The notes: generated from the letters alone by a model not told the origin. 64,000 nt of DNA from a bacterium (GCA_021823625.1 JAKANS010000002.1:7575-71574); one strand, 5' to 3'; counted from the stretch's first letter, positions 3,107-30,924 are shown. Numbers and translations are program-made.

Positions 3107-6100
3107 TCAAGGCGAGGTCACCGCCCGGTAGAACTTGGTGGGAGTGCCGGCATCGAGCGGTACGGTGAACACCATCGTGCCACCGGTGTTGAGTTGCGAG
3201 GCAACCGGCGACCAAGTCACCAGGTCCGCGCTATCCTGCAAGGTGTAGGTCAAGCCGGTCTTGCCGGTGACCCAGATTTGCAGCCCGTCCGGAACACTGA
3301 CCAAGGTCAGATGCGCCGCCGGGTCGGTCGGATCGGGCACGTCAGCCGGCACGTAGATGTTGTCGATGAACATCGCGTCCAGGCCCGCGGAGAAGTTGTT
3401 GTCCTTCACGTAGCGCCAGGTCAGCGTGTGCGTGCCCGCGCCGAGGCTGAACAGGTAGGTGCGCCAGGCCACCTCGCCGCTCCAGCGCTCGATGCGCAGG
3501 CCGTCCACGTAAAACTCGGCGAAGTCCCAATTGGCCTCCGAACTGACCCGGACGTCGAACGCCGCGGAGCCGCCGCGCGAATTGACCTGGAGTTGCAGGC
3601 TGGTGTCCTGGCCATCGCCAATGCTGCCCGAGCGCACCGCGAACTTGCCGGCGCTGGCCACGGACGACTGCAACTGCCACGGCCGGCTGGAATTGTTGAC
3701 CCAAGGCGGGGCTTGGAGGTTCGCCGCGGTGAACGGCGGCTCGAAGGTGTAAGTGTAAGCCGTCGGAGCGAACTGCGCGGTGAGCACGTAGTCCTTGTCC
3801 ATCACCAAGACCAACGGATTCGCGGTGGAATTGACCGTGCCCTGCCAGCCCGTGAAGGCGAATCCCCGTTCGGGCAAGGCCGTGACCGTCTGGGTGGAAC
3901 CCACCGGGTACGAACCGGACGATGGGGTGACCGTGCCGCCCACCGGCGGCGTGATGTTGAGCGCGTAACTGTCCACGCGGTCGTCGTCCACGATGCTGAG
4001 CGTGGCGGTGTTCTGGAGCCCGAGAACGGCGCCACCTTGCGGATTCGTCAGGGAGAGCAGAACCGTGCGGTCCGACTGCGCAACGGCGTTGTCGATGATC
4101 GTCACCGGGAAGGTCAGCTCGCGCTCGCCGGGGTTGAACGTGAGCGTGCCGGTGGCGGACTCGTAATCCACGCCTGCGACACCGGTGCCGTCGGCGGTTG
4201 CGTAATCCACACTCACGAGCGTGTTGGTGGGGCCGGTGCGTCGGACGAGGATGTCGGCCTGGCCGCGGTTTTCGGGCACCGAATCGGTGGCGGAGCCGAA
4301 GGCCACCGCGCTTTGGCTGTCCTCGATGGTCAGCACCGCGCTGAGGCGCGCGGTCAACGAGTAACCGGGCGGCAGGTTGGTGAGTACCACGTTCACCGTC
4401 AGGTCGCCCCGCCCCTGATTATCGTTGAGGACCGGGATATCGAACGTCTTTTCCGTCTCGCCGGCCGCGAAGTTCAACGTGCCGTTGGTGGCGACATAAT
4501 TGACGCCCGCCGTCGCCGTGCCATCCGCGGTCATGAAACGCACCGTCGCCGGTAGCGTGAGATCGCCGGCGCGGGTCACCGCGAGGGTGGCCTGCCCGTC
4601 GAGTTCCGAAGCGCGGTACGCGGCGGAACTGAGCTGGAGGATGTTCAGGCGGAACTTCTCATCGCCGTGGATGCGGGCAATGCGGTTGCGCGGGAGCTTG
4701 TTCACCATCGTGAAATCGCCGCCGATGACCACCGCGCTGTCCGGTTGGACCAGCAGGGTGTACACGGTGTCGTTGGCGCCCGAGCCGATGTCAAACGTGC
4801 TGTCGAGCGTGCCATCCGGGTTGAGCCGGGCGAGGCGGTTGAGGTCCTGGCCATCGTACTGGGTGAAGGCACCGCCCAGCATCACCTTGCCATCGGCGGT
4901 CAGGCCCGCCGCGTAAACCGTCGCATTCGCGCCCGTTCCCGGATCGAAACCAGCATCGAGCGAACCGTCCGCGTTGAGCCGGGCCACGCCGTGCCGCGGG
5001 GCGCCGCCGGCCAGTTGCAGCGCGCCTGCGATGACCACGCGGCCGTCCGGTTGGAGGGCAATGGCATTGACGGTGTTGTCCAACGTCGGGCTGAAGCCGG
5101 CATCCAGCGTCCCATCGGCGTTGAGCCGCGCGAGGAATGGCCGGCTGGCGTTGCCGACGTTCCGGAATGCGCCGCCAACCAGAATCTTGCCGTCGCTCTG
5201 AACCGCCAGCGCATTCACGGCGCCATCGAAGGCGGGTGCAAAGGTCGGATCGACCGCGCCGGTGGACTGGAGTCGCGCCAGGCGCTGGTGGCGTTGTCCC
5301 TGCACGTTGTTGAAGTCGCCGCCCAGCAGGATCGTGCCGCCGGATTCGACCGCCACCGCCCGCACGGCCGCGTCGGCACCGGCGCCGACCTTGAAGTCCG
5401 GATCGACGCTGGCGTCCGCGTTCAGGCGGGCGATGCGGTTCAGCGTGTTGGTGCTGAACTTCGTGAATTGGCCACCCACGACGATGCGGCCGTCGGGTTG
5501 CAGCGCCACCGCGAGCACGTCGGCATCGAAGCCGCCGCCCGGGTTGAGGAACGTGTCGAGGTAGCCGTCGTCGTGGAGCCGGGCGATGTGGTTGAGCGAA
5601 ACCTCGTCCACGGCGGTGAACTTGCCGCCGAGCAGCACCTTGGCGTCGGCCTGGAACGCGACCGTCAGGACGGTGTCGTTCGCGCCGGTGCCGGGGTTGA
5701 ATTCGAAGTCCACACTCCCCGGCTTCTCGTTGTCGATGATGGTGACCGCTGCCGTGGTGTTGGTGCCGAGAGTGGCGGTGAGCGGCAAGCCCACGCCGCC
5801 CGCGGTGCGCGCATTCGTGAGGGCCACGGAGAACACCTGGTCGCCGTCGCCGATCGTGTTATCGAGAATGCGGATGTTGAACGACTGGTTCGTTTCACCC
5901 GGTTGCAGAACCAGCACGCCGGTCCCGTCTTGGGACCGGACAATCTGGTCGCCCGCGAAAGCCAGCGTGCCGCGGGCACCGATGTATTTCTTGCCGGAGG
6001 TGGCGGTGCCATCGACGGTGGCGAAATCCACCTGCACCGGCTGCACGGGGCTGCCGTCGCGCTGGACGGTCAGCGTGAGAATGCGCGCGTACTCGTCCAC

Positions 6101-11686: not shown

Positions 11687-11816
11687 GGCTTTTCAGGTGC
11701 ACCGACTTTAGGTGACAGGTACTTCGGTCGCAAGGGCATTCAAAACTGGTCGCGCAAACCTCGATAAACAGCAAATAACACGCCACGATTCCCGCATTTT
11801 CGGTCGCTCCTGTGGC

Positions 11817-12413
11817 TCACGGAACCACTCCCACCCCACGCAGAATGCGGGCGAGTTGCCCGGCCGTGTTGGCCAGTCCGCCTTCGGCCCAAATCACGTA
11901 GCGCGCCGCCGCGATTTTTCGTTCGATCGGCCACTGGGCACGGATGCGCTGCGTGATTTGCTCCTCCGACCAGCCACGCGCCCGCAAGCGCGCTTGCTGG
12001 CTCGCCGCCGTGCAGGCCACACAGATCGTGGCCGAAAACTGCCAGGCGGCGTCCGTCTCGAAAAGCAGCGGAATGACCACGCCGCCGGCCAGGCAACCGC
12101 GCTCCCGCCAGCGCGCCGCCTCGGCCAACCACGCCGCCCGAATGCGCGGATGCAAAATGGCCTCAAGCTCCCGGCGGCGGTTGTCGTCTGCAAACACGAT
12201 TCGGGCCAGTTCCTCGCGGCGCAGAACGCCTGCATCGTCCACGACGCCGTCGCCGAAGGCGCGTTGGATCTCCCGCAAAGCGGATTGGCCCGGCGCCACC
12301 AGTTCCCGCGCCAACGTGTCGGTGTCCGTGACTGGCAGACCAAGCTGCCGGAGACAATCCGCCGCCGCCGACTTGCCCATGCCGATGCCGCCCGTAAGTC
12401 CGAGGAGTTTCAT
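11817..12413 (-). CDS. coaE: dephospho-CoA kinase
   Basis: MKLLGLTGGIGMGKS P-loop at the N-terminus and ILHPRI, length about 198 aa. The ATG at 12413 is preferred over the TTG at 12425 used by the ORF track. Confidence 0.85.
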   Translation of the reverse strand: MKLLGLTGGIGMGKSAAADCLRQLGLPVTDTDTLARELVAPGQSALREIQRAFGDGVVDDAGVLRREELARIVFADDNRRRELEAILHPRIRAAWLAEAARWRERGCLAGGVVIPLLFETDAAWQFSATICVACTAASQQARLRARGWSEEQITQRIRAQWPIERKIAAARYVIWAEGGLANTAGQLARILRGVGVVP

Positions 12414-12494
12414 CGCGCGAGGCAAAGAGTGGTGGCGTGACGGACCGGCGGCAGCTGTTGCCCGCCACTGGCGAGAGCCCAGGCGTTGCCGTCT

Positions 12495-12533
12495 GCAAAA
12501 ACGAAGCCGCGCGGCGAGCGGCCACCGCGCGGC
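12495..12533 (-). terminator. intrinsic terminator downstream of the M36 protease gene
   Basis: 9-bp GC stem (12506-12514 gccgcgcgg paired with 12525-12533 ccgcgcggc) with a 10-nt loop. On the minus strand TTCGTTTTTG follows (plus-strand aaaaacgaa at 12497-12505). It lies about 40 nt after the stop at 12573. Confidence 0.65.
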
Positions 12534-17102: not shown

Positions 17103-17120
17103 CGAATCACCTCTGCGGTT

Positions 17121-17167
17121 GAAAACTAACACACAGGCGCGCCGCGCACGAGGGCACGGACGCGCCC
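17121..17167 (-). terminator. hairpin plus T-rich tract between the 1008-aa gene and the M36 gene (possible terminator/attenuator)
   Basis: Stem 17136-17144 (ggcgcgccg) pairs with 17157-17166 (cgg-a-cgcgcc, one bulge). On the minus strand TGTGTGTTAGTTTTC follows. It sits about 28 nt after the stop at 17195 and just ahead of the M36 SD/ATG. Confidence 0.4.
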
Positions 17168-20268: not shown

Positions 20269-21807
20269 TCACGGGGTTGTTCCACCTGTCCCGGTCGTGC
20301 TGGTTGTTCCGGTCGCTGTAACCGTGATGAACGGAGAAAGCCACGGGGTCTGGCTGCTGTCACTCATGCTCCCCGAGAGGACCAGGCGTTCCAAGTCTTG
20401 GATGCTTGCACCGAAAGGATAAATGACCGGCTCCGCCGTAGTCCCGTCATAAGTCCCCCAGAAGAAACCCGGGATACTATCGGCTTCTCCACCTTCGGGA
20501 ACGTTGATGAGAAACTGGCCCAACTTGCTGAAGGTGATCGTGACGGGGGGCTGTATCAGCCCGGGACCGGCCAACGTCTCGCTGCCGTTCTGCGCATCCA
20601 AGTTAACCAGCGGAATGGTCCGGCGGTACATGACCGGCGACGTGACCCCGATGCCGAGGTCCGCCGCGGTGAAAAGCACGTCCGGGGCCGTCAGCGTACG
20701 CTGCACGGTCTGACTACGCTGGGTGTAATTGGTGATGTACTTGTCCACGTACACGTTCGTCAGCGCCACCCAGCCGCCGACCAAGGAATCGTAGTTCACC
20801 CGCGCAAAGCTGACCTTGTCCACGCCCGAACGGAGTGCGACGTCGATCGCCGCCAGGTTGGTTCCCACCGCGTTGGTGAAACCGGAAGGAGCACCCCACG
20901 GGTTTGAGCTGCCGGATCCGGTGCTGCCCCCGATCAGGTAAGTGCCGCTTGCCGTCCCCGGCGACGCCTGCACCACGTTCGTGGCCAACGTTTCGACGTT
21001 GTAGTTGGAGGGCCGGTACAGGTAGCGCAACGCAGCCACGTCGTCGCGGGTCAGGCCGGTGAAGAACAGCCCAGGCGAGGTGTTGACCGTCCAGCCGGAG
21101 GCAAAGATTCCCACCGACAGCCCTATGAACGAGGACACGGAATTGACGCTCGGAACAGTAGGATCCACCTCGAACTCCACCGCTTCATACGTGGGCGTCG
21201 TAATCGTCTGGAGAATCTGATAGGTGTAAAGCACGGAGTTGACGTACGCGCTGGGTTGAAGCGAGAGCGGATCGAAGTTGCGTCTGATGACCGTGTAGAA
21301 AGGAATGTTGTTGATCACGACGCGCGATCGCAGCGTCCAGACGTACCGCTCTGCCGGCGCGGCCCCCATGACCTCCATCAGCGCGGCCATCGCGTACGAC
21401 CGCAGATCGTACAGGTACAGCGCCGTCGCCCGGTGGTTGAAGCGGCGGGTATCCAAGGGAAACTCAGACAGATCCGCGCTCATTTGTGAGGTTGCCGGCA
21501 GGTCGTTGAAGACCTTGATGGCCTTCTCCACCTCTTCCACGCCTTTCGCGCCAAAATAATTGAGGAACGATTCGTCGAACCCGTAGGTGATCAAAGGCAG
21601 GTTCCACCGGTATTCCTCCCCCAAGTTCATCGGCCCCCCCACGTCCGGTGGGAGGGTGTTGTTTCCAAGATCCAGCCCCCCGAGCTGGTAGCCGATTTCC
21701 GGCGTCATCCAGGTGTCGAACGCGCCCAGCAACGAGAACGCCTGGGCGCGGGGCAACGCGCCGGCGAGGGCGAGGACCAGCAGGATTCGAGCGAACAGAG
21801 CACGCAT
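20269..21807 (-). CDS. secreted hypothetical protein (512 aa)
   Basis: Signal peptide MRALFARILLVLALAGALPRAQA followed by FSLLGAFDTW. Thr/Gly-rich tail (TATGTTSTTGTGGTTP). The start lies 3 nt after the stop of the upstream 691-aa gene. No family recognised. Confidence 0.75.
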   Translation of the reverse strand: MRALFARILLVLALAGALPRAQAFSLLGAFDTWMTPEIGYQLGGLDLGNNTLPPDVGGPMNLGEEYRWNLPLITYGFDESFLNYFGAKGVEEVEKAIKVFNDLPATSQMSADLSEFPLDTRRFNHRATALYLYDLRSYAMAALMEVMGAAPAERYVWTLRSRVVINNIPFYTVIRRNFDPLSLQPSAYVNSVLYTYQILQTITTPTYEAVEFEVDPTVPSVNSVSSFIGLSVGIFASGWTVNTSPGLFFTGLTRDDVAALRYLYRPSNYNVETLATNVVQASPGTASGTYLIGGSTGSGSSNPWGAPSGFTNAVGTNLAAIDVALRSGVDKVSFARVNYDSLVGGWVALTNVYVDKYITNYTQRSQTVQRTLTAPDVLFTAADLGIGVTSPVMYRRTIPLVNLDAQNGSETLAGPGLIQPPVTITFSKLGQFLINVPEGGEADSIPGFFWGTYDGTTAEPVIYPFGASIQDLERLVLSGSMSDSSQTPWLSPFITVTATGTTSTTGTGGTTP

Positions 21808-21810
21808 AGG

Positions 21811-23742
21811 TTACCGGACGCGAATAACGCGATAGTAAGCGGTGGAGTTGGTGCCGGGAATGACGGAGGAAGCGACGCTCCCCGGAGCGAACGCAGGTCC
21901 CGCGGCATCCGACCAAGTTTTCAAATCGGTCGAGGATTGGAGTTGGTAGATGGAACCCGGCAGGGCGTTCCATTGGACCAGGAGACCGCCGGTCGTGGGC
22001 TTAATGCCGACCCGCAGGGCACTGTCCCCTTTCGTTGGGTCGGTTCCGGCCAGGAACTCAGCCAGGTTCGAGGCGCCATCGCCGTCGGAATCCACCGTTG
22101 GAATTGGCCAGGTCGAGCTGTCCGGCCCCCAATACAGCGTCTGCCAATCGTCGGGCAGGCCGTCGTGGTTGCGGTCGCGGCCCCAGGTCGTGCCGCTGGC
22201 CACGTCCGACAGCGGCGAAACGCGACCGCCCGTCAACTCATAGGCCAGCCGGAAGCTGTGCACCGTTGCGGGATCCAGATCGCTCAGAATGTAGAAATTG
22301 CTGGTCAGAGCCACCGGCGTCGCCGCTCCGTCCACGAAGAGACGGTAGCCCGCGAGGTCGGTGTAGCCGGCCAGCGGCGCCCAGCTCACCATCAACGAGT
22401 ACGAGTCCAGCGCGGACACGACCGGTGCGCTCGGCGCCGGCAGCACCTGTTCACCCGCAAACCGTTGGCCAAAAATCTCGAAACTCGCGTCCCCGCCGGC
22501 GAATCCGGCCCAAGCCACCAGGAACCGCCCGCTGCCATCCGCCGCCACCATGGGTTGGAGTTGCTGGCTGACGGTGGTGGTGTTGATGAGGAATTCGCCC
22601 CCCGCCGGACCGTCCGAGCTCAGCAAGCGCCCGTAAATGCCGTCGCGCGAGCCATCCTGCCAAAGACTGTCCCACACCACGAGCCGGGTGTCGCCCAGGG
22701 CGGCGAGCTGCGGCGAAAACTGATTGTTCGGCCGGTAGGTGTTGACCACGGCCGGGGCGCCGACCGGCTGCCCCGCGGTGTCGAAATTACCCACGACCAC
22801 GTCCCACATGTTGGTCAGGTCGGGGAGATAACGCTCGCTCCAGGCCGCCACGAAGCCGCCGTTCCAACCGCGGGCCAGCACCGGGTTGGCGCAGAGGTTG
22901 GTCGCGGTGTTGAGCCGGAACTCGTCGCCGAGCGGATTGCCGGAAGCGTCGAACCGCCGGGCGAAGACCTCCACGCTGTTTTCGTAGCTCTGCTGCTCGC
23001 TCACCCACGCCGCGACAAATGCGCCCCCATCGACCGGGGTCACGGCCGGATTCCGCTGGTTGAAACTGCTGAACTGGTTGATTTGAAATTCGCCGCCCAG
23101 CTTGTCGCCGTTCGGCGCGAGGCGCTGCCCAAAGACGCCCTGCATGCTGCCGTCCTGGCCGAAGCCGCTCCAGAGCACGACCAGGTTGCCGTCGGGCAGG
23201 AGTGCGATGGCCGGGTTGGCGCGCTGGTTGCCGGTGGCCGCGTTCAACCGCAGGTCGCCCGTCGTGAAAGTGCCTTCCGGGCCGATGACGCGAGCCCAAA
23301 TGTCCTGCGATCCCTGCTTGCCCCCCTGCCAAACGAAGACCGCCCCACCGTCCTTGAGCAATTGAACCTGCGGATTCTCCTGGTCATCGGCCGTGCTTTC
23401 GTTGACCCGGAACATCCGCGTGGGAATGGGTGAAAGCGAGCCGTTCAGCTTCGCAGCCCCGATGCCGAGACCCGCGCCGTCCACGGCGTTGTCCTGCCAG
23501 ACCGCGTAGCCGCCACTGGCGTCGAGGCTGAGGTGGGGATGCGTCTGGTCCCCTGGCATTCCGCGCGTGATCAGGTACTCGGTGCCTTGCGCCGCGGCCG
23601 TCAGGTCGGCCGCCGCCATGCTGCTCGTAGCGGCCATCCCGAGGGCCAAGGACAGCCGGACCGCCCGGCCAGCGTCACGCGCCCGGACCACGGCCGGGTT
23701 CGCCGACGCGCTTCGAGGGCGTCCACTCATTGTTCCGCTCAT
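21811..23742 (-). CDS. secreted repeat-propeller / FN3 protein (about 643 aa from the ATG at 23742)
   Basis: Six to seven repeats of about 55 aa (pattern EF.(I/V/L)N......Q..P.V....DG.FVV.W......DGS..G(I/V)FGQR(F/L)). An FN3-like segment follows (SYSLMVSWAPLAGYTDLAGYRLFVDG), then DxDxDG-type motifs (DRNHDGLPDD, DSDGDGASNLAEF) and a C-terminal domain ending in AYYRVIRVR. The ORF track starts at 23886. The ATG at 23742 places a Tat/Sec-like basic N-region before a hydrophobic stretch. Confidence 0.75.
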   Translation of the reverse strand: MSGTMSGRPRSASANPAVVRARDAGRAVRLSLALGMAATSSMAAADLTAAAQGTEYLITRGMPGDQTHPHLSLDASGGYAVWQDNAVDGAGLGIGAAKLNGSLSPIPTRMFRVNESTADDQENPQVQLLKDGGAVFVWQGGKQGSQDIWARVIGPEGTFTTGDLRLNAATGNQRANPAIALLPDGNLVVLWSGFGQDGSMQGVFGQRLAPNGDKLGGEFQINQFSSFNQRNPAVTPVDGGAFVAAWVSEQQSYENSVEVFARRFDASGNPLGDEFRLNTATNLCANPVLARGWNGGFVAAWSERYLPDLTNMWDVVVGNFDTAGQPVGAPAVVNTYRPNNQFSPQLAALGDTRLVVWDSLWQDGSRDGIYGRLLSSDGPAGGEFLINTTTVSQQLQPMVAADGSGRFLVAWAGFAGGDASFEIFGQRFAGEQVLPAPSAPVVSALDSYSLMVSWAPLAGYTDLAGYRLFVDGAATPVALTSNFYILSDLDPATVHSFRLAYELTGGRVSPLSDVASGTTWGRDRNHDGLPDDWQTLYWGPDSSTWPIPTVDSDGDGASNLAEFLAGTDPTKGDSALRVGIKPTTGGLLVQWNALPGSIYQLQSSTDLKTWSDAAGPAFAPGSVASSVIPGTNSTAYYRVIRVR

Positions 23743-23992
23743 GTAAGCTGTGTCCACAAGCTTTCGCACTTCGTTGGGCAAGCCCCGCCTTTGCGGTCGA
23801 CCTGCCCGGTCACGCTGCTTTTCTGAATACCGTGGCCGCGAGCACCACTTAGCAAGTCGCCTGCCACTCGACTGACCGAACGTCATCGCTCCGCCAGCCC
23901 TTCAAATCTCCCCAAACCGCAGAATCGAGGACCACCCCCGGCGGTTCCGGCAAGTTGGGGTCGGCCTTGGTCCCGAGCCGGCCCTCGAACGC

Positions 23993-24577
23993 TCACTGGG
24001 CCGGACTGAACGGCGATTGCGACGGCAATTTGTTGGGATCGTACGGGAGATTATTTTCGTCGTGCACCCGGTTGCCGGCCGGATCGATGATCGTGGGGGT
24101 CACGAAAATGACCAGATTCTTCTTCGAACTCGACTTCGCCTCGCTGCGGAACAAGCGGCCGACCAGCGGCAGATCGCCGAAGACGGGCACCTTGTCCTTG
24201 ACCTTGGTGACGCGCTCGGAGATCAAGCCGCCCAGCACCACGGTCTGTCCGTCCCACACGATCGAACTGGTCACGACCTGGCGGATGCGGAACCGCGGCA
24301 GCGGCACCGGCGCGGCCAGGTTGCCGACGACCGCCCGGAATTGGCCGGGATCGTCGTAGCCGAGGAATTCGGTAACCGTCGGCAGCAGGTTTAGTTGGAT
24401 GGTGTAACCATCCGCCGAAACGTGCGGGATCACGTCCAAGGTCGGGCCGATCGGCACCGGGACGGTGGTGGGTTGAATCGTCGGGGTGGCCGCCGCCTGG
24501 TTGACCACCTGGGCGTGGGCCAGGCCGCCCAACCCCAAAACCGCCGCACCGAGCAGAACAAGCGCTTTGATTCTCAT
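23993..24577 (-). CDS. secretin C-terminal half (second part of the PF00263-type secretin domain) with its own signal peptide
   Basis: MRIKALVLLGAAVLGLGGLAHAQ signal, then LDVIPHVSADGYTIQLNL, WDGQTVVLGGLISE, KVPVFGDLPLVGRLFRS and NLVIFVTPTIID, which is the canonical C-terminal secretin signature. It is in the same frame as the upstream 826-aa ORF and is separated from it by a single TAA. Confidence 0.8.
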   Translation of the reverse strand: MRIKALVLLGAAVLGLGGLAHAQVVNQAAATPTIQPTTVPVPIGPTLDVIPHVSADGYTIQLNLLPTVTEFLGYDDPGQFRAVVGNLAAPVPLPRFRIRQVVTSSIVWDGQTVVLGGLISERVTKVKDKVPVFGDLPLVGRLFRSEAKSSSKKNLVIFVTPTIIDPAGNRVHDENNLPYDPNKLPSQSPFSPAQ

Positions 24578-24610
24578 ATCGAATGTCTGGTCGAAAGTTG
24601 GATCCACCGG

Positions 24611-27061
24611 TTACTGGACGACCCCAACACCCGTCGTCGTCCCACCACCCACCGTGCCTGTGCCGGTAGTAGTGGTGCCGCCGCCGATGCCGCCGGCCTG
24701 GTTATACGAAACCACCGTCTGGAGATCGATGATTTGAATCTGTGCCTGGCGACCGCTCACGGTCGTCACTTTCGGGGCGGAGAGCACATCCACGCCGCCG
24801 CGTTGTTCCAGTGCCCGGATCACCACCCGGAATTGGGGATCCGTCATGATGCCGGTGACCGTCGCGAGGGTTGGGATCGCTGTGCCGCCGACCTCCGTGC
24901 TGCGCAATCCAGAGGTGATTATTTGATCCGTACCGGCGTTAGGCGCCACCGCCGGCGCTCCGAAATTGCCCGGAAACACGCCGTAAGGGTTCGCGGCGGA
25001 GGGCGTGCCCGCATACGAAGGCGCCGTCCCGCCAGAGAGGCCGACGTTGCCGCCCGCCATGTTGAAATTACCCAAATACCAGTCGAAGCCGAGGGCCTTC
25101 GCGTCGTCCTGCCCGATTTCGACGAACTTGACCTCGATGGTCACCTGATCCGGCGTCATGTTTAGGGCTTGGATCGCCTGATCGATGATCTCGAGATCCT
25201 GCATGGTCGCCCGAACCAAGAGGAGCCCGGTGCGGTCATTAAAGAACAAAGCTTTGCCTTGGGCGTTCTGGAAACCCGCGCCGGCCGCGCCGCCTTGGAA
25301 GCCGCCCGCGCCGCTGAAACCGCCGCCACCCTGGCCGAGAATGTTCTGGCCGCCCAGATCGACACCTGCCGCGGTGAAGTATTGCCGCACGAGGTCGTTG
25401 ACGTAGGACATCGGGGTCGATCCCGCCACGCCAGTGGGACTTCCACCGCTGCCGAGTCCACCGCCACCGCCTTGGCCACCGAGTCCACCGCCTTGGCCGC
25501 CATAGCCACCGCCACCCCCGCCGATGCCGCCACCACCACCGCCACCATAGCCGCCGCCGCCGCCGAAACCGCCGCCGCCTTGGCCGCCATAGCCACCACC
25601 GCCGATACTCACCCGCGCAATCGACAGACCGCCACCGCCGCCTTGGCCGCCATAACCGCCACCACCACCGCCGTAACCGCCACCACCACCACCACCGCCG
25701 AGGCCGCCGCCACCGCCGAGACCTCCGCCACCCAAACCGCCACCCCCGGTACCGCCAGTACCACTGCCGCCGAGCACACTGGAATAATCGATGGCATAGA
25801 CGCCTTCGAGTCCTTGCACGAACGTGTTCGGGTTGACCTTGAAGGTCTTGGTAAAGAGCTGTTCGCCTTCGGGAATCTTCTTGCTGAACACGATCGCGTA
25901 TTCCTCGACCGAGTACTTGATCTGCTTCTCAGCCACTTTGACGATTGCGTCCAGCACGTCGGCCAAGCGCACGTCATGCAGTGGCGGCTCGATCTTGATC
26001 TGGACTTCGCCCAGGTCGAACTGCTCCTGCTCGGGCGCCGCGGTCACCGGCTGCCCGGTCTGCGGATCGAAGGTGGTCAGCCCGGCCGCCGCCTGACGCG
26101 GCTGGGAGTCGATGGTCGGGGCAATGATGAAATTGAGCCCCTTCTTGTCCGGGTCGCGCAGACGGGCTTCCTCGTCCAGATAGGTGACGGCCTCGCTCAA
26201 CGACACGCCGGGGAAGTCCACTTTCTCGAGGCGGATGCGATCAAGCTTGGAATAAATCATTCGGCGGCCTGGACCGGTATAAACGGTATTGGTACGGGCA
26301 AACGGGTTGGCCACCGGCAGCTTCTCGCGCGAGATGGACGGATTCCAAGCCTCCTCGACCTCGACCATCTTGTTGCGAGCCATGATTTCGCGCTTCACGG
26401 CATCTTGCTTGTACCGCAACTCCTGAACCATGGTGAGATAATAACCCGCGGCGCGGTTCTCCGGATCGATCTTGATCGCCTGCCGAAGCTTCCCTTCCGC
26501 CTCGTCCAATTTGCCCATTTCATAAAGCAGCTTGGCATCCTGCACCAAACTACCTGCGTCCAACTTGGACTGGTGGGCCTCCGGCAACAGGGCGACGATT
26601 TCCTTGCTGGGGGTTCGCCCCTCGAGCGCCTTGAGCGCCTTGTCCACCTTCACCTTCAACTCTTGCGCCTCGGGGTTCTTCGGATCCACCCGGAGCACGC
26701 GCGACACCTGCCGGTTGGCCTCTTCGTAGGCGGCGCTGGCATAGGATTTCTTGCTGAGCGCCAGGTAGGTGGCGGAGAAGCCGGCCACGGTCTCTTTGCG
26801 CTCGTTCTCGATGCTCGTGTCTCCGATGCGCTGGACCAAGCTCCAGCACTCTTCGTACAACCGGGACGCATCCATGAGGTTGCCCTGGCGGGACTGGGCG
26901 GCCGCCTCCTTCAAATCTTTGCGCAAGAGAATCCGAAGTTCCTCCCGCCGTACGGCTTCCTCGGCCGCAGTCGTCTGCGCCGCATTCGTCTGGGCCCGGG
27001 CAGTGGGCACCGCCACCCAGAGGGCCGCCGCGGCGACGGTGATGAAGGCAAATCGAATCAT
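24611..27061 (-). CDS. secretin N-terminal part (TPR-like region, N-domains, Gly-rich domain, first strands of the secretin domain); Amuc_1098/PilQ-like
   Basis: Signal MIRFAFITVAAAALWVAVPTARAQ (ATG at 27061). TPR-like helices (KLLYEMGKLDEAEGKLRQAIKIDPEN). Secretin N-type domains (IRLEKVDFPGVSLSEAVTYL; LLLVRATMQDLEIIDQAIQALN; VTIEVKFVEI). VLSAPKVTTVSGRQAQIQI marks the start of the secretin domain. The ORF ends at the TAA at 24611-24613. Confidence 0.8.
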   Translation of the reverse strand: MIRFAFITVAAAALWVAVPTARAQTNAAQTTAAEEAVRREELRILLRKDLKEAAAQSRQGNLMDASRLYEECWSLVQRIGDTSIENERKETVAGFSATYLALSKKSYASAAYEEANRQVSRVLRVDPKNPEAQELKVKVDKALKALEGRTPSKEIVALLPEAHQSKLDAGSLVQDAKLLYEMGKLDEAEGKLRQAIKIDPENRAAGYYLTMVQELRYKQDAVKREIMARNKMVEVEEAWNPSISREKLPVANPFARTNTVYTGPGRRMIYSKLDRIRLEKVDFPGVSLSEAVTYLDEEARLRDPDKKGLNFIIAPTIDSQPRQAAAGLTTFDPQTGQPVTAAPEQEQFDLGEVQIKIEPPLHDVRLADVLDAIVKVAEKQIKYSVEEYAIVFSKKIPEGEQLFTKTFKVNPNTFVQGLEGVYAIDYSSVLGGSGTGGTGGGGLGGGGLGGGGGLGGGGGGGGYGGGGGGYGGQGGGGGLSIARVSIGGGGYGGQGGGGFGGGGGYGGGGGGGIGGGGGGYGGQGGGLGGQGGGGGLGSGGSPTGVAGSTPMSYVNDLVRQYFTAAGVDLGGQNILGQGGGGFSGAGGFQGGAAGAGFQNAQGKALFFNDRTGLLLVRATMQDLEIIDQAIQALNMTPDQVTIEVKFVEIGQDDAKALGFDWYLGNFNMAGGNVGLSGGTAPSYAGTPSAANPYGVFPGNFGAPAVAPNAGTDQIITSGLRSTEVGGTAIPTLATVTGIMTDPQFRVVIRALEQRGGVDVLSAPKVTTVSGRQAQIQIIDLQTVVSYNQAGGIGGGTTTTGTGTVGGGTTTGVGVVQ

Positions 27062-27118
27062 GGATGGGTTATTTCGCAAAACGGAAGACATAAAGCAATG
27101 CGGATTACGGAGCGGCCT

Positions 27119-27916
27119 TCAGCGGTTGAGCGAGATCACGGTTCGGCGTTTGGTTTTCTCGTCCTCGATTGTAACGTCCGAGGCACTGATGGCAACGACA
27201 TTGTAGGTGGAACCGGCCACGGTGAGCTTGCTGCCCTGCCTTTCCTTCAAGAAGGTGCGGCCTTCGCCCTCGTGGCGCAGGTCGGCCGAGTAACCCGCCA
27301 CTTCGTTGTAACCTTTGTCCTTGGGAACCACCACGGTGGTGCGCGAATCCGCCAGCTCCACGCGAAAGCCATCCGGGCGGTCCTTCGGCCCCATGACCTC
27401 TTTGAGCAGGATGACATCCGGTTTGTCGTTGATGGCAAGAATCACGATGCGACCGTGCTGCAGGCTCGACACGGTTGCCGCCTGGTTTTGCACGTAGAAG
27501 CGGTACCTCGTGGCGGTGCCGCTTCGAGAGAGGCCCTGGAATTCGATGCGGAGCATCAGCGGCGTGATATTCGTAACGATCAGTCCCTCCAAACCTGAAG
27601 GCGGCGGGGGAATCGGCGGAAAGCCTCCGGGACCCCTGCCTTTCATCCAGGTGCCGGAAGGATTGAACAAACCGTGTTTGCCGGTCCCGAAACCGAACTT
27701 GATGGGCCCCTTCAGTCGGGCGAGCACGGCTTCGTTCGTGGAGAGGTTGAGTTCGGGAATCGGCGCCACCTTGGGGTCATCCACCGCACTCGTCACCACC
27801 GCGAGCCTCTCCCGGACGTTGGCCACTTCGAAAGGCAGATAACCGGCCGCCACCGCCAAGCTGAGCAAGACCACGCTCAGCAGTATCTTCTCGTAGTGCT
27901 TCTTTAGAAAGTCCAT
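27119..27916 (-). CDS. membrane-anchored hypothetical protein in the PilP / Amuc_1099 position
   Basis: 265-aa ORF with an N-terminal TM (ILLSVVLLSLAVAAGYLPF). It lies between the PilO-position gene and the secretin, with an 8-nt gap upstream. The function is inferred from position only. Confidence 0.55.
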   Translation of the reverse strand: MDFLKKHYEKILLSVVLLSLAVAAGYLPFEVANVRERLAVVTSAVDDPKVAPIPELNLSTNEAVLARLKGPIKFGFGTGKHGLFNPSGTWMKGRGPGGFPPIPPPPSGLEGLIVTNITPLMLRIEFQGLSRSGTATRYRFYVQNQAATVSSLQHGRIVILAINDKPDVILLKEVMGPKDRPDGFRVELADSRTTVVVPKDKGYNEVAGYSADLRHEGEGRTFLKERQGSKLTVAGSTYNVVAISASDVTIEDEKTKRRTVISLNR

Positions 27917-27924
27917 GCGTCAAC

Positions 27925-29013
27925 TTAGGGGGAGGGCGTGGCTTCCGGAGCCGCCGCTGGATCGGGTGGAGCCGCTTGCGGATCGCCTGCAGCCGCCTGC
28001 CCGCGCGCACCGCCTGACCGGCTGGCCTTGGCTTCGTTCGGATCGCGGAGCCTGACGATGTCCACCCAGGCTGTCACGCGGAAGGGTTTTTCGCTGACGA
28101 TCTTCGCGGCGTCTTCCTGGGCGGTCAGCGTCGCCGAATCCATCGGTTGCGGGGCCATTGGCATGCGCCCGCGCAAACCGTACCGCATCATCATCATCAT
28201 CGCGGGACTCATCGCAGGCATGTTACCCTCGCCGCCGCCCGTGGGCGCGTAGATGTCAACCGTATTGGTGTCCCCGGTATCGACGATCAGGTTTTTGAGC
28301 AGCAAGCTGTGAGGGTTGCGGGCCAGACCTTCGAGCACGGACTGCAACTCGCTGCTGAAACAGCGGAAAGTGAACTCGTAAGGGATCACCACGGCCAGGT
28401 CGTTGGTAACGGCTTTTCGCGTCCAGTAATCCGAAGTGCCGCCCATCATTCCGATTCCGGGCGTGTCTTGCGTGGCCAGCGAGATACGGCGGATCCGTTC
28501 GAGTTCCAAAACCTTCGCATCGAAGATAATCTCGCAGACTTCCTTGATTTCCATGAGCGCGCGCGTCAACGGCACCACGGTGTTGGCCTCGACGAACGCG
28601 AGTGGTTTCTGGGCGGCGAAGGTAAAGGCGTAATTGTCAGGGAGTTTCGTGCTCGACTGCCGCGCCAACCGCTGCAGGTAGTCCACCGTGGTGTCGAGCA
28701 GGAGTTTGAAATCGCCGCCGCTGAGGTTGGTCGGGTACGGTACGGGGACGAACTGTTGCTTCGCCCGCGCGGCAAAGACCTCGAGTTTCTCCTCCTGCTG
28801 CCGCGCGGCGGCGATGTTGTCCACCTTCCGGTTGCCCGGATGCGGTTTCATGCGGAGCAGCCCCTGCAACTCAGTGTCCTGCGCCTCGAGCTTGGTCGTC
28901 ACCTCCGCCGAATGCTGGATCTTGAGGTAGAGAAAATAGCCGGCAAAACCCAGGAGAGCCAAAGCCGCGACCCCGCTGATGACCAGCGTGAGGTTTTTTT
29001 TGATCCAGTCCAT
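27925..29013 (-). CDS. Amuc_1100-like / PilO-position pilus-complex protein
   Basis: N-terminal TM (LTLVISGVAALALLGFAGYFLYL), then a coiled-coil. The segments IPYEFTFRCFSSELQSVLEGLARNPHSLLLKNLIV and EKPFRVTAWVDIVRL resemble, from memory, the Akkermansia Amuc_1100 segments LEIAFQGDRESVLKAMNAI...FTVNSIRI and QVFVKVSLNLVHF. There is a 3-nt gap to the pilMN stop. Confidence 0.5.
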   Translation of the reverse strand: MDWIKKNLTLVISGVAALALLGFAGYFLYLKIQHSAEVTTKLEAQDTELQGLLRMKPHPGNRKVDNIAAARQQEEKLEVFAARAKQQFVPVPYPTNLSGGDFKLLLDTTVDYLQRLARQSSTKLPDNYAFTFAAQKPLAFVEANTVVPLTRALMEIKEVCEIIFDAKVLELERIRRISLATQDTPGIGMMGGTSDYWTRKAVTNDLAVVIPYEFTFRCFSSELQSVLEGLARNPHSLLLKNLIVDTGDTNTVDIYAPTGGGEGNMPAMSPAMMMMMRYGLRGRMPMAPQPMDSATLTAQEDAAKIVSEKPFRVTAWVDIVRLRDPNEAKASRSGGARGQAAAGDPQAAPPDPAAAPEATPSP

Positions 29014-29016
29014 ACC

Positions 29017-30924
29017 TTACAGTTTGATGGGCGCGGCGAGCTTCAGTTTCACCTCAAACCGGAAGGTGTTGGTGGTCTGGTCAGGCTGCATGTTGCCGGA
29101 GAGCACCGTGCCATTGGTGCCGCTGAGGAAAAGCGGATTGGCCCGCAACGCCTCCTGCACCGCCAGCATGATCTCGGTGTTCGCGGTGGGATTGGCGATG
29201 TGCCAGTCGATCGCCCGGCAGGTCAGGTTCACGGTGGAGATTTCGTTGGTGTTGGGCTTGCTGGGTGCTGCACCCGCATCCGGCGCGCCCGAGGCGTCGC
29301 TGGCGCCGCTGGCGTCGCCGCCCGAAGAGTCACCGCCCGTATCCTGCGTGATTTTGAAGCCTTTCGGGACCAAGCCATAACGCATCATCATCCGGATATC
29401 CATCATCATGGGCTTCGGCTTGTTGCTCTCGTCCTCCTGCTCTTCCGGTGGCGCCGAAAGGTTCTCCGCCGCCAGGCGTTCGATCCAGACCGCCGTCTTC
29501 ATTCCCGGTTGGGTGGTCACCTTCTCCGCCGTCACCAAAGAGTTACGCAACGCCGTTAGAATATCCGCCCAAGCGAACCGGTCCTCGAGCCACTCCGTGT
29601 ACTGATCCACCACCTTCTGCGCCTCATCGCGTTTGCGCATGGCGGCCTTAAACTGCTCCGCATTCTGCTTCAGTCGGGCCACCTTGGGGTCACGTTCGTC
29701 GATCGCCTGTTGCTTCACTGCGGCGACGCGATCGAAAAACATGCCCATCGCGAACACGGCCAGGATCAAGCTGATGACCGCCGCAATGAAATAAGGCTTT
29801 TTCTGGTTGAACTGTTGGCGCTGGAGGATCGTCTTCGGAATCAGGTTCAGCTCCACCGGACACCGCGTCGGATTGCGCAAACCGAGCCCGACGACCTCGC
29901 CAAACGAATGGGCCACCCGCGCCAATTCTTCGATATTGACGCCCGGGGCGATCTCCACGTTCCGGAATGGATTGAAGTAATCCACCGGCAGGTTGAGCTT
30001 CTCCGCGAAGAACTGCGAGGTGTAGGCCATGATGGAGGCCCCGCCCGAAAGAAATACCCGCTGAGGCGCCGAGCCGCCTTGCTGGCTCCGGTAAAACTGG
30101 ATGGTCTGATTGACCTGGATGTGCAGGCGGGTCATCACCTGCCGGGCGATCTTGGAAATCGCCGCCTGGCGCGGGCTGTCAGGCTCTTCGTAAGCGCCGC
30201 CCAAGCTGACGAAGCCCTCGGCGATCTTGATTTTCTCCGCCTCGGCGAACGGCAGTTTCGACTCGGCGGCGAACTCCTGGGTGATCGAGTTCGCGCCAAT
30301 GTTGATGCTGCGGCAATAGATCTTGTCCTTCTCGAAAAAGAGGACGTTGCTGGTCTTGGCACCGATGTCCAGCAGCATCGAACAGCCTTCCTGATCGCCG
30401 TAATTATAGCGGAAGGCATTCGCGAGCGCTGCCGCGGAAACATCCACCAGTTGCAGCCGCAAGCCCTGCCCTTCCGCGGCCTTGAACAGGCCCTCGACCA
30501 AGTCGGTCTTGATGGCGACGAGGAGAACCTCCAGTTCGCCCGAAGGCAGATTGCCGAGAATCTGGTAGTCCCAGACGACCTCCTCCAGTGGGAAAGGCAC
30601 GTTCTGCTGGGCCTCGTACTGGATGATCTGGGTGGCCTTCGAGGCGTCCACCGGCGGCAGCTTGATGAACTTCGAGAACGCTTGGAAACCTGGGGCGCAA
30701 ACGTTGCAGTCGCGCGCGTTGAAGGTCTTGCTGCCGACCACCTCCTGCAAAGCACGCAGCACCACGCCCTCCCGGGCGCTATCCTGCGCGCCCGCAAATC
30801 CCAACGGCTTGACCGCGTAACGCAGCAGCCGGAGGGCGCCCGCTTCGGTGGCGTCAAATTCGGCCAGCTTCAGCGTCCCGGCGCCAAAGTCGATGCACAA
30901 AAAGGATTTCGACGTGTTCAGCAT
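29017..30924 (-). CDS. pilM: PilM-like actin-fold ATPase fused to a PilN-like membrane segment (Amuc_1101-like)
   Basis: Residues 1-350 look PilM/FtsA-like (FLCIDFGAGTLKLAEF, LVDVSAAALANAF, MLLDIGAKTSNV, VFLSGGAS). ELNLIPK and a TM helix (YFIAAVISLILAVFAMGMFF) follow as in PilN, then a coiled-coil and a C-terminal extension of about 130 aa. Confidence 0.8.
   Translation of the reverse strand: MLNTSKSFLCIDFGAGTLKLAEFDATEAGALRLLRYAVKPLGFAGAQDSAREGVVLRALQEVVGSKTFNARDCNVCAPGFQAFSKFIKLPPVDASKATQIIQYEAQQNVPFPLEEVVWDYQILGNLPSGELEVLLVAIKTDLVEGLFKAAEGQGLRLQLVDVSAAALANAFRYNYGDQEGCSMLLDIGAKTSNVLFFEKDKIYCRSINIGANSITQEFAAESKLPFAEAEKIKIAEGFVSLGGAYEEPDSPRQAAISKIARQVMTRLHIQVNQTIQFYRSQQGGSAPQRVFLSGGASIMAYTSQFFAEKLNLPVDYFNPFRNVEIAPGVNIEELARVAHSFGEVVGLGLRNPTRCPVELNLIPKTILQRQQFNQKKPYFIAAVISLILAVFAMGMFFDRVAAVKQQAIDERDPKVARLKQNAEQFKAAMRKRDEAQKVVDQYTEWLEDRFAWADILTALRNSLVTAEKVTTQPGMKTAVWIERLAAENLSAPPEEQEDESNKPKPMMMDIRMMMRYGLVPKGFKITQDTGGDSSGGDASGASDASGAPDAGAAPSKPNTNEISTVNLTCRAIDWHIANPTANTEIMLAVQEALRANPLFLSGTNGTVLSGNMQPDQTTNTFRFEVKLKLAAPIKL

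What the first reader, a model, noticed from the sequence alone, without database searches (positions are those of the whole stretch)
3107..30924. A same-strand block of about 28 kb couples a PilM/N/O/P/Q-like (Amuc_1098-1101-type) module, without fibre genes, to five very large exported proteins
Every gene from the pilM-pilN fusion (start 30924) to the stop of the 2859-aa gene (3107) is on the minus strand.

Spacing is tight in two places. Gaps of 3, 8 and about 30-60 nt separate pilMN, the Amuc_1100-like gene, the PilP-position gene and the secretin. Gaps of 3 nt and 47 nt separate the 691-, 512- and 1008-aa genes.

No pilin, PilB/PilT ATPase, PilC platform or prepilin peptidase gene is in the window, so the parts needed to build a fibre are not next to the secretin module. 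What follows the secretin instead are exoproteins of 691, 512, 1008, 1519 (M36 protease) and 2859 aa (metzincin/Calx-beta/propeller). Four of them carry the same C-terminal domain.

Inference: the secretin module may be the outer-membrane route or display platform for this cargo set. That would make it an undescribed cargo-plus-secretin arrangement rather than a classical type IV pilus locus.

Caveats: hairpin terminators after the 1008-aa and M36 genes, and the embedded coaE, show that the block is not one transcript.
Basis: partly seen in the sequence, partly recalled or inferred. Interest (0 to 1): 0.78.

Follow-up and report, generated by a model that had tools for sequence, protein, structure and literature searches.

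The report
Secretin module with conserved giant exoproteins
A Verrucomicrobial relative of the Akkermansia Amuc_1098-1101 (MUL2) pilus-like secretin locus is followed, in nearly every related species checked, by the same three large exported proteins and usually a big protease, an extended layout I did not find described, although whether the secretin exports them is untested.

Summary
The block is real. All genes from 30924 to 3107 are on the minus strand, and the stated gaps, domains and hairpins check out.

Corrections:
- The secretin is two ORFs. The C-terminal piece has its own signal peptide.
- The 691-aa gene probably starts about 50 codons later than M1.
- The same-strand run continues upstream to about 39 kb.

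- In 45 of 46 related loci with enough upstream flank, the order PilP-position gene, secretin, 691-type, 512-type holds on one strand.
- In 70 of 70 loci the 1008-type gene follows the 512-type gene.
- A large protease follows the 1008-type gene in 40 of 59 loci. It is S8 in all seven S8-type loci I scanned and M36 in the window's clade. Both types share one ~750-aa C-terminal module.
- The 2859-aa gene is lineage-specific.

Cautions: housekeeping genes (coaE, a 5'-3' exonuclease) sit inside the same conserved block, and the shared C-terminal domain is a widespread fn3-like module.

Verdict: a new variant of the known Amuc_1098-1101 (MUL2) type IV pilus-like system. Linkage is shown. Export through the secretin is inferred only.

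The parts
29017..30924 (-). PilM-like actin-fold domain (aa 11-351) fused to one TM segment (aa ~375-404) and a periplasmic tail. Amuc_1101 (MUL2B) family. The topology resembles GspL.
   Evidence: PF11104 E 2.5e-35; NF045709 E 5e-145 and TIGR01175 147.8 bits, above its cutoff; TM scan.
27925..29013 (-). Amuc_1100-family bitopic protein, at the PilO/GspM position.
   Evidence: NF038287 E 8e-13; PF28028 precomputed; N-terminal TM.
27119..27916 (-). 265-aa bitopic protein at the Amuc_1099/PilP position. No family hit.
   Evidence: Conserved at this position in 46 loci, median 34% identity.
24611..27091 (-). Secretin N-piece: signal peptide, TPR region, Gly-rich spacer, N-domains and the first ~50 positions of PF00263. 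It ends at an in-frame TAA.
   Evidence: NF042912 Amuc_1098_fam E 4e-74.
23993..24577 (-). Secretin C-piece, 194 aa. It starts with its own Sec signal peptide (MRIKALVLLGAAVLGLGGLAHA|QVVNQ), then PF00263 positions 46-169.
21811..23742 (-). 691-type exported protein (start probably M49, not M1). Repeated ~55-aa blades that look like a beta-propeller, then fn3, a TSP3 Ca-binding repeat and the fn3-like C-terminal domain.
   Evidence: Present in 76 of 80 loci, median 48% identity.
20269..21807 (-). 512-type exported protein: signal peptide AQA|F, no known domain. The family is well conserved.
   Evidence: 865 relatives; 70 invariant columns in 24 sequences; AF2 pLDDT 56 and no PDB fold or sequence match.
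17195..20221 (-). 1008-type exported all-beta protein, probably a beta-solenoid, with a TSP3-like DSDGDG motif (read by eye) and the fn3-like C-terminal domain.
   Evidence: AF2 pLDDT 85, pTM 0.72. Foldseek: only non-significant beta-helix passenger and pectinase hits, plus local fn3 hits with probability up to 0.98.
12573..17132 (-). Protease slot. Here it is an M36 fungalysin-type metalloprotease (HEYTH) carried on a ~750-aa C-terminal module (Flg_new_2 ... fn3-like C-terminal domain). In most other species the same module carries an S8 subtilase.
12506..12533 (-). Intrinsic-terminator-like hairpin (12 pairs, then UUCGUUUUUG) after the protease gene.
11817..12425 (-). coaE (dephospho-CoA kinase). 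A conserved housekeeping boundary of the block, not a functional part.
   Evidence: PF01121 E 2e-44. Follows the cluster in at least 40 of 59 loci. Listed among the genes flanking MUL2 in Akkermansiaceae (PMC13174399).
3107..11686 (-). 2859-aa metzincin/PKD/Calx-beta/DUF5122 giant exoprotein with the same C-terminal 287-aa unit as the protease. A lineage-specific neighbour beyond coaE.
   Evidence: Strong hits in about a dozen of the 80 loci, mostly the closest relatives. A similar 3171-aa gene sits right after the trio in L086.
31079..35312 (-). Upstream context on the same strand: NAD-dependent epimerase/dehydratase, Bac_transf sugar transferase, EpsI (DUF3485) and exosortase EpsH.
   Evidence: The epimerase is adjacent to pilMN in about half of the loci with enough flank.

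Best explanation
This is the version of the Amuc_1098-1101 (MUL2-type) type IV pilus-like envelope machine found in Verrucomicrobiota of the Pedosphaera/Limisphaerales type, extended by a second sub-operon.

Sub-operon 1 encodes the trans-envelope scaffold:
- a PilM-like cytoplasmic domain fused to a TM and a periplasmic domain (GspL-like topology);
- an Amuc_1100/PilO-like protein;
- a PilP-position protein;
- a TPR-bearing secretin, here made of two polypeptides.

Sub-operon 2 encodes three Sec-exported proteins: a beta-propeller-like 691-type, the 512-type, and a beta-solenoid-like 1008-type. A large protease on a fixed C-terminal carrier module usually follows.

Proposed mechanism. These proteins reach the periplasm by Sec. 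Their release to, or assembly on, the cell surface depends on the secretin module. That module is powered by pilin-like and ATPase parts encoded elsewhere. On the surface they form an adhesive, substrate-capturing and proteolytic complex. This complex stands where Akkermansia has the MUL2A pilin-like protein.

Shown: the gene content, the Sec signals and the conserved linkage. Inferred: dependence on the secretin, surface location and function.
For: - Family hits place the module in the Amuc_1098/1100/1101 families.
- Order and strand of PilP-position gene, secretin, 691-type, 512-type hold in 45 of 46 loci, and the 1008-type gene follows in 70 of 70, across species with 38-66% identity of the 512-type protein. 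They also hold in two loci with only 27-30% identity in the 1008-type protein.
- Flanks are less stable. The epimerase sits upstream in about half the loci, and coaE is inside the block in about 68%.
- The 691-type and 512-type proteins (median 48% and 45% identity) are more conserved than the PilO- and PilP-position proteins (35% and 34%).
- Coupling is tight in many species. Median gaps are 8 nt for 691 to 512 and 38 nt for 512 to 1008.
- All three proteins have Sec signal peptides.
- The next gene is a protease in 40 of 59 loci. The catalytic domain is S8 or M36 on the same ~750-aa module. This non-homologous replacement argues for selection of a protease at this position.
- There is no room for a MUL2A-type gene upstream of pilMN (154 nt), and no prepilin motif in the window.
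- In Akkermansia the module is tied to mucin uptake and attachment (PMC13174399, PMC12418764).
Against: - No experiment or transcript data exist for this organism.
- The two sub-operons are separated by about 300 nt (median), and in 34 of 73 loci by a 5'-3' exonuclease gene. coaE is also embedded. Conserved order in this region therefore includes functionally unrelated genes.
- Terminator-like hairpins follow the 1008-aa and protease genes.
- No ATPase, platform or pilin gene is in the window, so no energy source is linked.
- One locus (L082) has a 512-type gene without the module.
- The 512-type protein gave only a poor model and no fold match, so its role is unknown.
- Only 80 of the 302 matching stretches were inspected.
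Confidence: 0.45

Rival explanations
1. Ordinary pilus-type scaffold plus unrelated neighbours. The pilMN-to-secretin genes serve a type IV pilus-like filament whose pilins and ATPases lie elsewhere. The large exoproteins use another route (for example a separate type II system) and stay adjacent only through inherited synteny.
For: - coaE and a 5'-3' exonuclease, clearly unrelated in function, are kept inside the same block.
- A gap of about 300 nt and hairpins separate the units.
- Classical pilMNOPQ operons are unlinked from pilin and ATPase genes (own knowledge).
- The C-terminal domain is generic.
Against: - Linkage of 45/46 and 70/70 at 38-66% identity, while the outer flanks were reshuffled.
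- Linkage also holds at 27-30% identity of the 1008-type protein.
- The trio was found away from the module only once.
- The protease slot was refilled by a different catalytic class.
Confidence: 0.2
2. The trio are machine parts, not cargo. The 691/512/1008 proteins would be periplasmic or outer-membrane structural or priming components. Possible roles are a PilY1-like beta-propeller tip adhesin with partners, or a secretin-associated cap or pilotin complex. They would replace minor-pilin/PilY1-type functions.
For: - The 691- and 512-type proteins are more conserved than the PilO/PilP-position proteins and nearly always present.
- The 691-type core looks like a beta-propeller.
- PilY1 of type IVa pili has a C-terminal beta-propeller and a Ca site (own knowledge).
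- TSP3 Ca-binding repeats are present.
Against: - No sequence or fold match to PilY1, pilotins or TsaP.
- Akkermansiaceae run the same scaffold without these genes. The legend read lists only a secretin, dephospho-CoA kinase, rho and a dehydroquinase among the other MUL2-flanking genes.
- The 1008-type protein looks like a typical secreted beta-solenoid adhesin.
Confidence: 0.2
3. The C-terminal domain directs secretion. The ~70-aa fn3-like domain ending (R)FYR-x3-P would be a sorting or anchoring signal, analogous in role to the type IX secretion C-terminal domain. The secretin module plus the trio would then be the export and attachment machine for every protein that carries the domain.
For: - Four proteins of the block end in the domain, and no other ORF of the 64-kb window has it.
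- In 132 of 149 top database representatives the last copy ends within 12 aa of the C-terminus, with a conserved FYR-x3-P end.
- It is attached to varied passengers: proteases, cadherin-like, F5/8-C, DUF11, Ig.
- NCBIfam separates M36 proteases by their C-terminal sorting type, and this one fits none of those types.
Against: - The domain often occurs in 2-5 tandem copies and sometimes internally, which is unusual for a signal.
- The 512-type protein lacks it, and some 691-type orthologues (453-529 aa) lack it.
- Co-occurrence of the domain with the module across genomes was not tested.
Confidence: 0.1

Closest known systems
Akkermansia muciniphila Amuc_1098-Amuc_1102 cluster (MUL2; 'type IV pili gene cluster')
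   Same: Shared: a PilM-like Amuc_1101-family protein with a fused TM/periplasmic part, an Amuc_1100-family protein, a gene at the Amuc_1099 position, an Amuc_1098-family secretin with an N-terminal TPR region, and dephospho-CoA kinase nearby.
   Different: - All NCBIfam scores are below the equivalog cutoffs.
- There is no Amuc_1102/MUL2A pilin-like gene upstream.
- The secretin is in two pieces here, whereas Amuc_1098 is one 907-aa protein (PMC4960237).
- Three conserved large exoproteins and a protease lie between the secretin and coaE.
Type IVa pilus pilMNOPQ operon (e.g. Pseudomonas aeruginosa)
   Same: PilM family member above the TIGR01175 cutoff, followed by bitopic proteins and a secretin. 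Pilin and ATPase genes are unlinked.
   Different: PilM is fused to the next component. PilN, PilO and PilP were not detected by sequence. The secretin has TPR rather than AMIN domains and scores below the PilQ cutoff (45 and 76 bits against 284). Exoprotein genes follow it.
Type II secretion systems with an adjacent substrate gene (e.g. Klebsiella pul with pulA)
   Same: A secretin next to genes for large Sec-exported enzymes. The fused PilM-TM-periplasmic protein has the topology of GspL. The best secretin-domain scores are to GspD.
   Different: No GspE/F/G-K genes in the window, no T2SS family reaches its cutoff, and secretion was not tested.
Split secretin RhcC1/RhcC2 of rhizobial-type type III secretion systems
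   Same: A secretin encoded as separate N- and C-terminal genes, conserved within a lineage (PMC3574062).
   Different: A different secretin family and system. Here the pieces are adjacent (about 20-60 nt apart), the break lies inside PF00263 at positions ~46-50, and the C-piece carries its own signal peptide.
Type IX secretion C-terminal domains (Bacteroidota)
   Same: A small beta-sandwich at the extreme C-terminus of diverse large exoproteins, including M36 proteases.
   Different: No sequence relation (no Por_Secre_tail hit). No type IX components. Tandem copies are common. A signal role was not tested.

Membership tests
Amuc_1098-1101 / MUL2-type pilus-like cluster | Amuc_1101-family PilM-like protein with a fused membrane/periplasmic part | tested here: met
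   NF045709 E 5e-145 (484.7 bits; equivalog cutoff 650 not reached); PF11104; TIGR01175 above its cutoff; TM at aa ~375-404.
Amuc_1098-1101 / MUL2-type pilus-like cluster | Amuc_1100-family protein next to it | tested here: met
   NF038287 E 8e-13 (48.5 bits, cutoff 180 not reached); PF28028 precomputed hit on the identical protein.
Amuc_1098-1101 / MUL2-type pilus-like cluster | Amuc_1099-family protein | tested here: not met
   The 265-aa gene has no NCBIfam or Pfam hit. Only its position and size agree.
Amuc_1098-1101 / MUL2-type pilus-like cluster | Amuc_1098-family secretin with an N-terminal TPR region | tested here: met
   NF042912 hits on both pieces (250 and 130 bits; cutoff 750 not reached); weak TPR hits; PF00263. 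The protein is split in two here.
Amuc_1098-1101 / MUL2-type pilus-like cluster | Amuc_1102 (MUL2A) pilin-like gene upstream of the PilM-like gene | tested here: not met
   Only 154 nt lie between pilMN and the epimerase gene. No prepilin-type motif in any ORF of the window. Not compared with the Amuc_1102 sequence itself.
Type IVa pilus PilMNOPQ | Separate PilN, PilO and lipoprotein PilP; PilQ with AMIN domains | tested here: not met
   No PilN, PilO, PilP or AMIN Pfam hits. TIGR02515 PilQ scores 45 and 76 bits against a cutoff of 284.
Type IVa pilus PilMNOPQ | Pilin, PilB/PilT ATPases, PilC and prepilin peptidase somewhere in the genome | not testable with these tools
   None in the 64-kb window. 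The rest of the genome is not available.
Type II secretion system | GspD, GspE, GspF, the GspG-K pseudopilins and GspC/L/M | tested here: not met
   Only a secretin domain is present (TIGR02517 65 and 95 bits against a cutoff of 351). No other Gsp family occurs in the window. The GspL-like topology is a resemblance only.
Type IX secretion C-terminal-domain cargo | Por_Secre_tail-type C-terminal domain and type IX machinery | tested here: not met
   No such Pfam or NCBIfam hit on any of the four tails. NF038113 (T9SS-dependent M36) matches only the protease part, aa 123-524.
Exosortase/PEP-CTERM cargo | C-terminal PEP motif, TM helix and basic tail | tested here: not met
   The tails end ...YYRVRYDP...YRGVAP and the like, with no TM segment. 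An exosortase and EpsI do lie upstream.

The most novel reading that the evidence does not exclude
This clade of Verrucomicrobiota, related to Pedosphaera and Limisphaerales, has turned the Amuc_1098-1101 type IV pilus-like scaffold into a dedicated, pilin-independent export and display machine. It would serve a fixed set of giant non-pilin proteins: a beta-propeller protein, the 512-aa family, a beta-solenoid protein and a protease on a carrier module. It might also serve every protein ending in the fn3-like FYR-x3-P domain. It would use a secretin made of two separately exported polypeptides. That would be a new functional class within the type IV filament superfamily, playing a role like type IX secretion in Bacteroidota.
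Probability: 0.2. Interest if true: 0.85.

Novelty: new variant of a known kind. Interest (0 to 1): 0.62.

Why it matters
The Amuc_1098-1102 (MUL2) system of Akkermansia draws much attention. Amuc_1100 and Amuc_1098 are studied as host-active proteins, and MUL2 is tied to mucin foraging. How the machine works is still unknown.

The relatives studied here offer a natural experiment.
- The same scaffold lacks the pilin-like MUL2A gene but is permanently linked to three large exported proteins and a protease. This points to what the scaffold may handle or hold.
- It gives concrete candidates for secretome, pull-down and cryo-ET work in cultured members of this group.
- It defines two large protein families without annotation: the 512-aa family with at least 865 relatives, and the 1008-aa family.
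- It defines a very common unannotated C-terminal domain, with 8294 representative clusters.
- It adds a second, independent case of a split secretin.

Tried and rejected
- PDB sequence searches with the 512-family profile, the Amuc_1100-like, 265-aa and 691-type proteins found nothing significant.
- The AF2 model of the 512-aa protein was poor (pLDDT 56) and Foldseek against PDB gave nothing below E 0.8.
- The AF2 model of the 1008-aa protein was good (pLDDT 85). Foldseek gave only non-significant beta-helix hits and local fn3 hits, so 'beta-solenoid adhesin' remains an inference.
- Rfam and tRNA scans of the window were empty.
- Promoter and terminator consensus counts were at shuffle level.
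- PEP-CTERM sorting of the exoproteins was considered because an exosortase lies upstream. I rejected it because the tails have no PEP-TM-basic signal.
- A sequencing error as the cause of the secretin stop codon was rejected. Three independent assemblies and about 22 other species show the split, some with the pieces in different frames.
- Cluster look-up of top C-terminal-domain hits gave little taxonomy beyond 'Verrucomicrobiae'.
- I could not retrieve Akkermansia DNA to inspect the genes after Amuc_1098 directly. I relied on a figure legend in PMC13174399. A literature search for Amuc_1094-1097 found nothing relevant.

Full report
**1. What is in the window**

The window has about 64% G+C. 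Between 30924 and 3107 all real genes are on the minus strand. Family searches give the following genes.

| Coordinates | Product | Main evidence |
|---|---|---|
| 29017-30924 | 635-aa PilM-like protein, Amuc_1101 family | PF11104 E 2.5e-35; TIGR01175 147.8 bits vs cutoff 133; NF045709 E 5e-145 |
| 27925-29013 | 362-aa Amuc_1100-family protein | NF038287 E 8e-13; PF28028 in the precomputed table |
| 27119-27916 | 265-aa bitopic protein | no family hit |
| 23993-27091 | secretin | NF042912 Amuc_1098_fam; PF00263; weak TPR hits |
| 21811-23886 | 691-aa protein | weak fn3 and TSP3 hits only |
| 20269-21807 | 512-aa protein | no hit |
| 17195-20221 | 1008-aa protein | no hit |
| 12573-17132 | 1519-aa M36 metalloprotease | PF02128 E 3e-112; HEYTH |
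| 11817-12425 | coaE | PF01121 E 2e-44 |
| 3107-11686 | 2859-aa protein | PKD, nine Calx-beta stretches, DUF5122 propeller repeats, metzincin motif HEIGHCYGLGH |

The PilM-like protein has one TM segment at about aa 375-404 followed by a periplasmic tail.

- The stated gaps follow from the coordinates: 3, 8 and 27-57 nt, then 3 and 47 nt.
- Hairpins with U-rich tails follow the 1008-aa and M36 genes.
- The window has no PilB, PilC or PilT family and no prepilin motif.
- An exact-sequence look-up places the window in a Verrucomicrobiota metagenome-assembled genome, GCA_021839785.1.

**2. Corrections to the observation**

- The secretin is interrupted by an in-frame TAA at 24611-24613.
  - The upstream ORF (826 aa) ends in a Gly/Thr-rich tail after the first ~50 positions of PF00263.
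  - The downstream ORF begins MRIKALVLLGAAVLGLGGLAHA|QVVNQ, a Sec signal peptide, and carries PF00263 positions 46-169.
- The 691-aa ORF is over-extended. Orthologues start near residue 40-53 with a clear signal peptide, and the mature N-terminus is F-x-P-Q-G-G-E-Y.
- The minus-strand run continues upstream to 39023 through an epimerase, a Bac_transf sugar transferase, EpsI (DUF3485), an exosortase and an SNF2 helicase. 'Same strand' therefore does not delimit the block.

**3. The neighbourhood test**

The 512-aa protein has at least 865 relatives, all without annotation or Pfam domains. The named ones come from Verrucomicrobia or Pedosphaera. An alignment of 24 of them has 70 invariant columns.

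I scanned one genome per species of GTDB with this alignment. It found 302 stretches encoding a relative, and the best 80 loci were fetched with 10-kb flanks. I compared them with the window's proteins by tblastn and blastp.

- Upstream: 45 of 46 loci with at least 7.5 kb of flank have PilP-position gene, secretin, 691-type, 512-type in that order on one strand.
- Downstream: 70 of 70 loci with enough flank have the 1008-type gene right after the 512-type gene.
- Far relatives: the order also holds in two loci whose 1008-type protein is only 27-30% identical.
- Exception: one locus, L082, has a 512-type gene in another context.

| Protein | Median identity to the window |
|---|---|
| secretin C-piece | 62% |
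| PilM-like | 56% |
| 691-type | 48% |
| 512-type | 45% |
| Amuc_1100-like | 35% |
| 265-aa | 34% |
| 1008-type | 32% |

| Junction | Median gap |
|---|---|
| pilMN to Amuc_1100-like | 2 nt |
| Amuc_1100-like to 265-aa | 5 nt |
| 265-aa to secretin | 42 nt |
| secretin to 691-type | 295 nt |
| 691-type to 512-type | 8 nt |
| 512-type to 1008-type | 38 nt |

The block is therefore two compact units that stay adjacent. The outer flanks are less stable. The epimerase is next to pilMN in about half of the loci with enough flank.

**4. The protease slot**

The gene after the 1008-type gene matches the window's M36 protease in 40 of 59 loci, and coaE follows directly in 10. In most of those 40, only the C-terminal ~750 aa match.

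Pfam was run on eight of them. Seven carry an S8 subtilase in front of that module. One (L037) carries M36 but has a different C-terminal region (P_proprotein and DUF11). The window's closest relatives carry M36 on the shared module.

Two unrelated catalytic domains on one carrier module at one locus position argue that a protease is selected for there.

The 2859-aa gene lies beyond coaE. It gives strong hits in about a dozen of the 80 loci, mostly the closest relatives. A comparable 3171-aa Calx-beta/DUF5122 gene follows the trio directly in the distant locus L086.

**5. A caution on the synteny argument**

In 34 of 73 loci a 5'-3' exonuclease gene (PF02739, PF01367) sits between the secretin and the 691-type gene on the same strand. 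coaE lies inside the block in about two thirds of loci.

These housekeeping genes show that conserved order in this region does not by itself prove shared function. The trio's linkage (98-100%) is nevertheless tighter than that of coaE or the epimerase.

**6. What the three proteins look like**

- All three have Sec signal peptides.
- 691-type: the core shows repeated ~55-aa units (W..G..G-I/V-fgqR..G...G-EF-vN) that read like beta-propeller blades. I judged this by eye. It is followed by fn3, a TSP3 Ca-binding repeat and the C-terminal domain.
- 1008-type: it was modelled with pLDDT 85 as an all-beta protein. Foldseek gave only non-significant hits to beta-helix passengers and pectinase-like proteins. 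It gave local fn3 hits for the tail, with probability up to 0.98.
- 512-type: it gave a poor model and no match.
- No PDB sequence relatives were found for any of them.

**7. The shared C-terminal domain**

- The M36 and 2859-aa proteins share their last 287 aa at 38% identity, E 2e-54.
- HMMs built only from orthologues of the 691- or 1008-type tails detect the other tails in the window at E about 1e-3 to 1e-5.
- A profile of the four tails finds 8294 representative clusters at E of 0.001 or better.
- Of the 149 top representatives that matched, 132 have their last copy within 12 aa of the C-terminus. They typically end (R)FYR-L/V-x3-P. Two to five tandem copies are common.
- The passengers are varied: cadherin-like, F5/8-C, Ig, DUF11 and a subtilase.
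- In the ten top hits and the four window proteins scanned, no Pfam family was reported over the domain. NCBIfam, run on three of the four window proteins, reported none either.
- The domain is thus a widespread fn3-like module with a strong preference for the extreme C-terminus. A sorting or anchoring role is possible but untested.

**8. Comparison with what is known**

Amuc_1099-1102 are now called MUL2, with Amuc_1101 as the PilM protein MUL2B and Amuc_1102 as the pilin-like MUL2A. MUL2 is proposed to mediate attachment and is linked to mucin uptake. A figure legend lists a secretin and dephospho-CoA kinase among its flanking genes in Akkermansiaceae (PMC13174399, PMC12418764).

The window shares the scaffold and the coaE neighbour. 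It differs in three ways:
- it lacks a MUL2A gene at the equivalent place;
- it has four extra genes between the secretin and coaE;
- its secretin is split.

None of the papers I read describes the extra genes. The fused PilM-TM-periplasmic protein has the topology of GspL, and PilO and PilP correspond to GspM and GspC (my own knowledge). The scaffold is therefore as compatible with secretion as with pilus assembly. By sequence it is PilM-type, and no T2SS family reaches its cutoff.

**9. Verdict**

Conserved linkage of a secretin module with a fixed set of large exported proteins is real and appears undescribed.
- 'Cargo' is one of several readings. Two of the five genes are lineage-specific in whole or in part, and the absence of fibre genes is not informative.
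- I rate it a new variant of a known kind, with interest 0.62.

Noticed in passing
window 23993-27091 (stop codon at 24611-24613); also L006-L015, L018-L021, L024, L026, L027, L033, L042, L060, L071, L079, L083: The secretin is naturally split into two adjacent genes. The C-piece has its own signal peptide (M-K/R-hydrophobic-AxA|QV) and the break lies inside PF00263 at positions ~46-50. About 22 other species share the split, with the pieces in the same or in different frames. More distant orthologues have one ORF of 890-1020 aa with a Gly-rich loop at that site. The only precedent I found is RhcC1/RhcC2 of rhizobial type III systems (PMC3574062).
   Followed up: partly
window 12573-17132; L014, L019, L024, L028, L035, L062, L083, L088 (S8) versus the window clade (M36): The catalytic domain was replaced by a non-homologous one at a fixed locus position. 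An S8 subtilase or an M36 metalloprotease sits on the same ~750-aa C-terminal carrier module (Flg_new_2 ... fn3-like tail). L037 also has M36 at this position but with a different C-terminal region (P_proprotein, DUF11).
   Followed up: partly
window 3110-3343, 12576-12809, 17198-17419, 21814-22041: A ~70-aa fn3-like domain ending (R)FYR-x3-P is not covered by any Pfam or NCBIfam hit in my scans. It has 8294 representative clusters in the 1.84-billion-protein library. It is at the extreme C-terminus in 132 of 149 top hits and is often tandem.
   Followed up: partly
L014, L015, L019, L024, L026, L039, L042, L047, L050, L056, L065, L071, L075, L083 and others (34 of 73 loci); absent from the window (gap about 23743-23992): A ~310-aa 5'-3' exonuclease gene (PF02739 and PF01367) is inserted between the secretin and the 691-type gene on the same strand in about half of the related loci.
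   Followed up: yes
window 11817-12425: coaE stays next to this pilus-like cluster from Akkermansiaceae to this clade. As far as I recall, pilD-coaE adjacency is also common in Proteobacteria. The reason is unknown.
   Followed up: no
window 31079-35312: An exosortase (EpsH), EpsI (DUF3485), a Bac_transf sugar transferase and an epimerase lie directly upstream on the same strand. None of the block's exoproteins has a PEP-CTERM tail.
   Followed up: partly
window about 28180-28210 (Amuc_1100-like, aa ~270-280) and about 29350-29400 (PilM-like, aa ~510-525): A Met-rich motif MM(M)RYG(L/I) occurs both in the periplasmic tail of the PilM-like protein and near the C-terminus of the Amuc_1100-like protein. 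It is present in 15 of 44 and 13 of 45 orthologues, and in none of the other cluster proteins.
   Followed up: partly
L024 and L026 (secretin N-piece C-terminus): In two species the secretin N-piece ends in a charged, coiled-coil-like tail (...QKLEQQIKAKDVEIQDLQQSVAELKKLVQSLAEKK) instead of the Gly/Thr-rich tail seen elsewhere.
   Followed up: no
L082 (contig JBEHZA010000127.1): This is the only locus where a 512-type gene (39% identity) lies without any of the pil or secretin genes in 9.5 kb upstream. It could be a paralogue, a rearrangement or a mis-assembly.
   Followed up: partly
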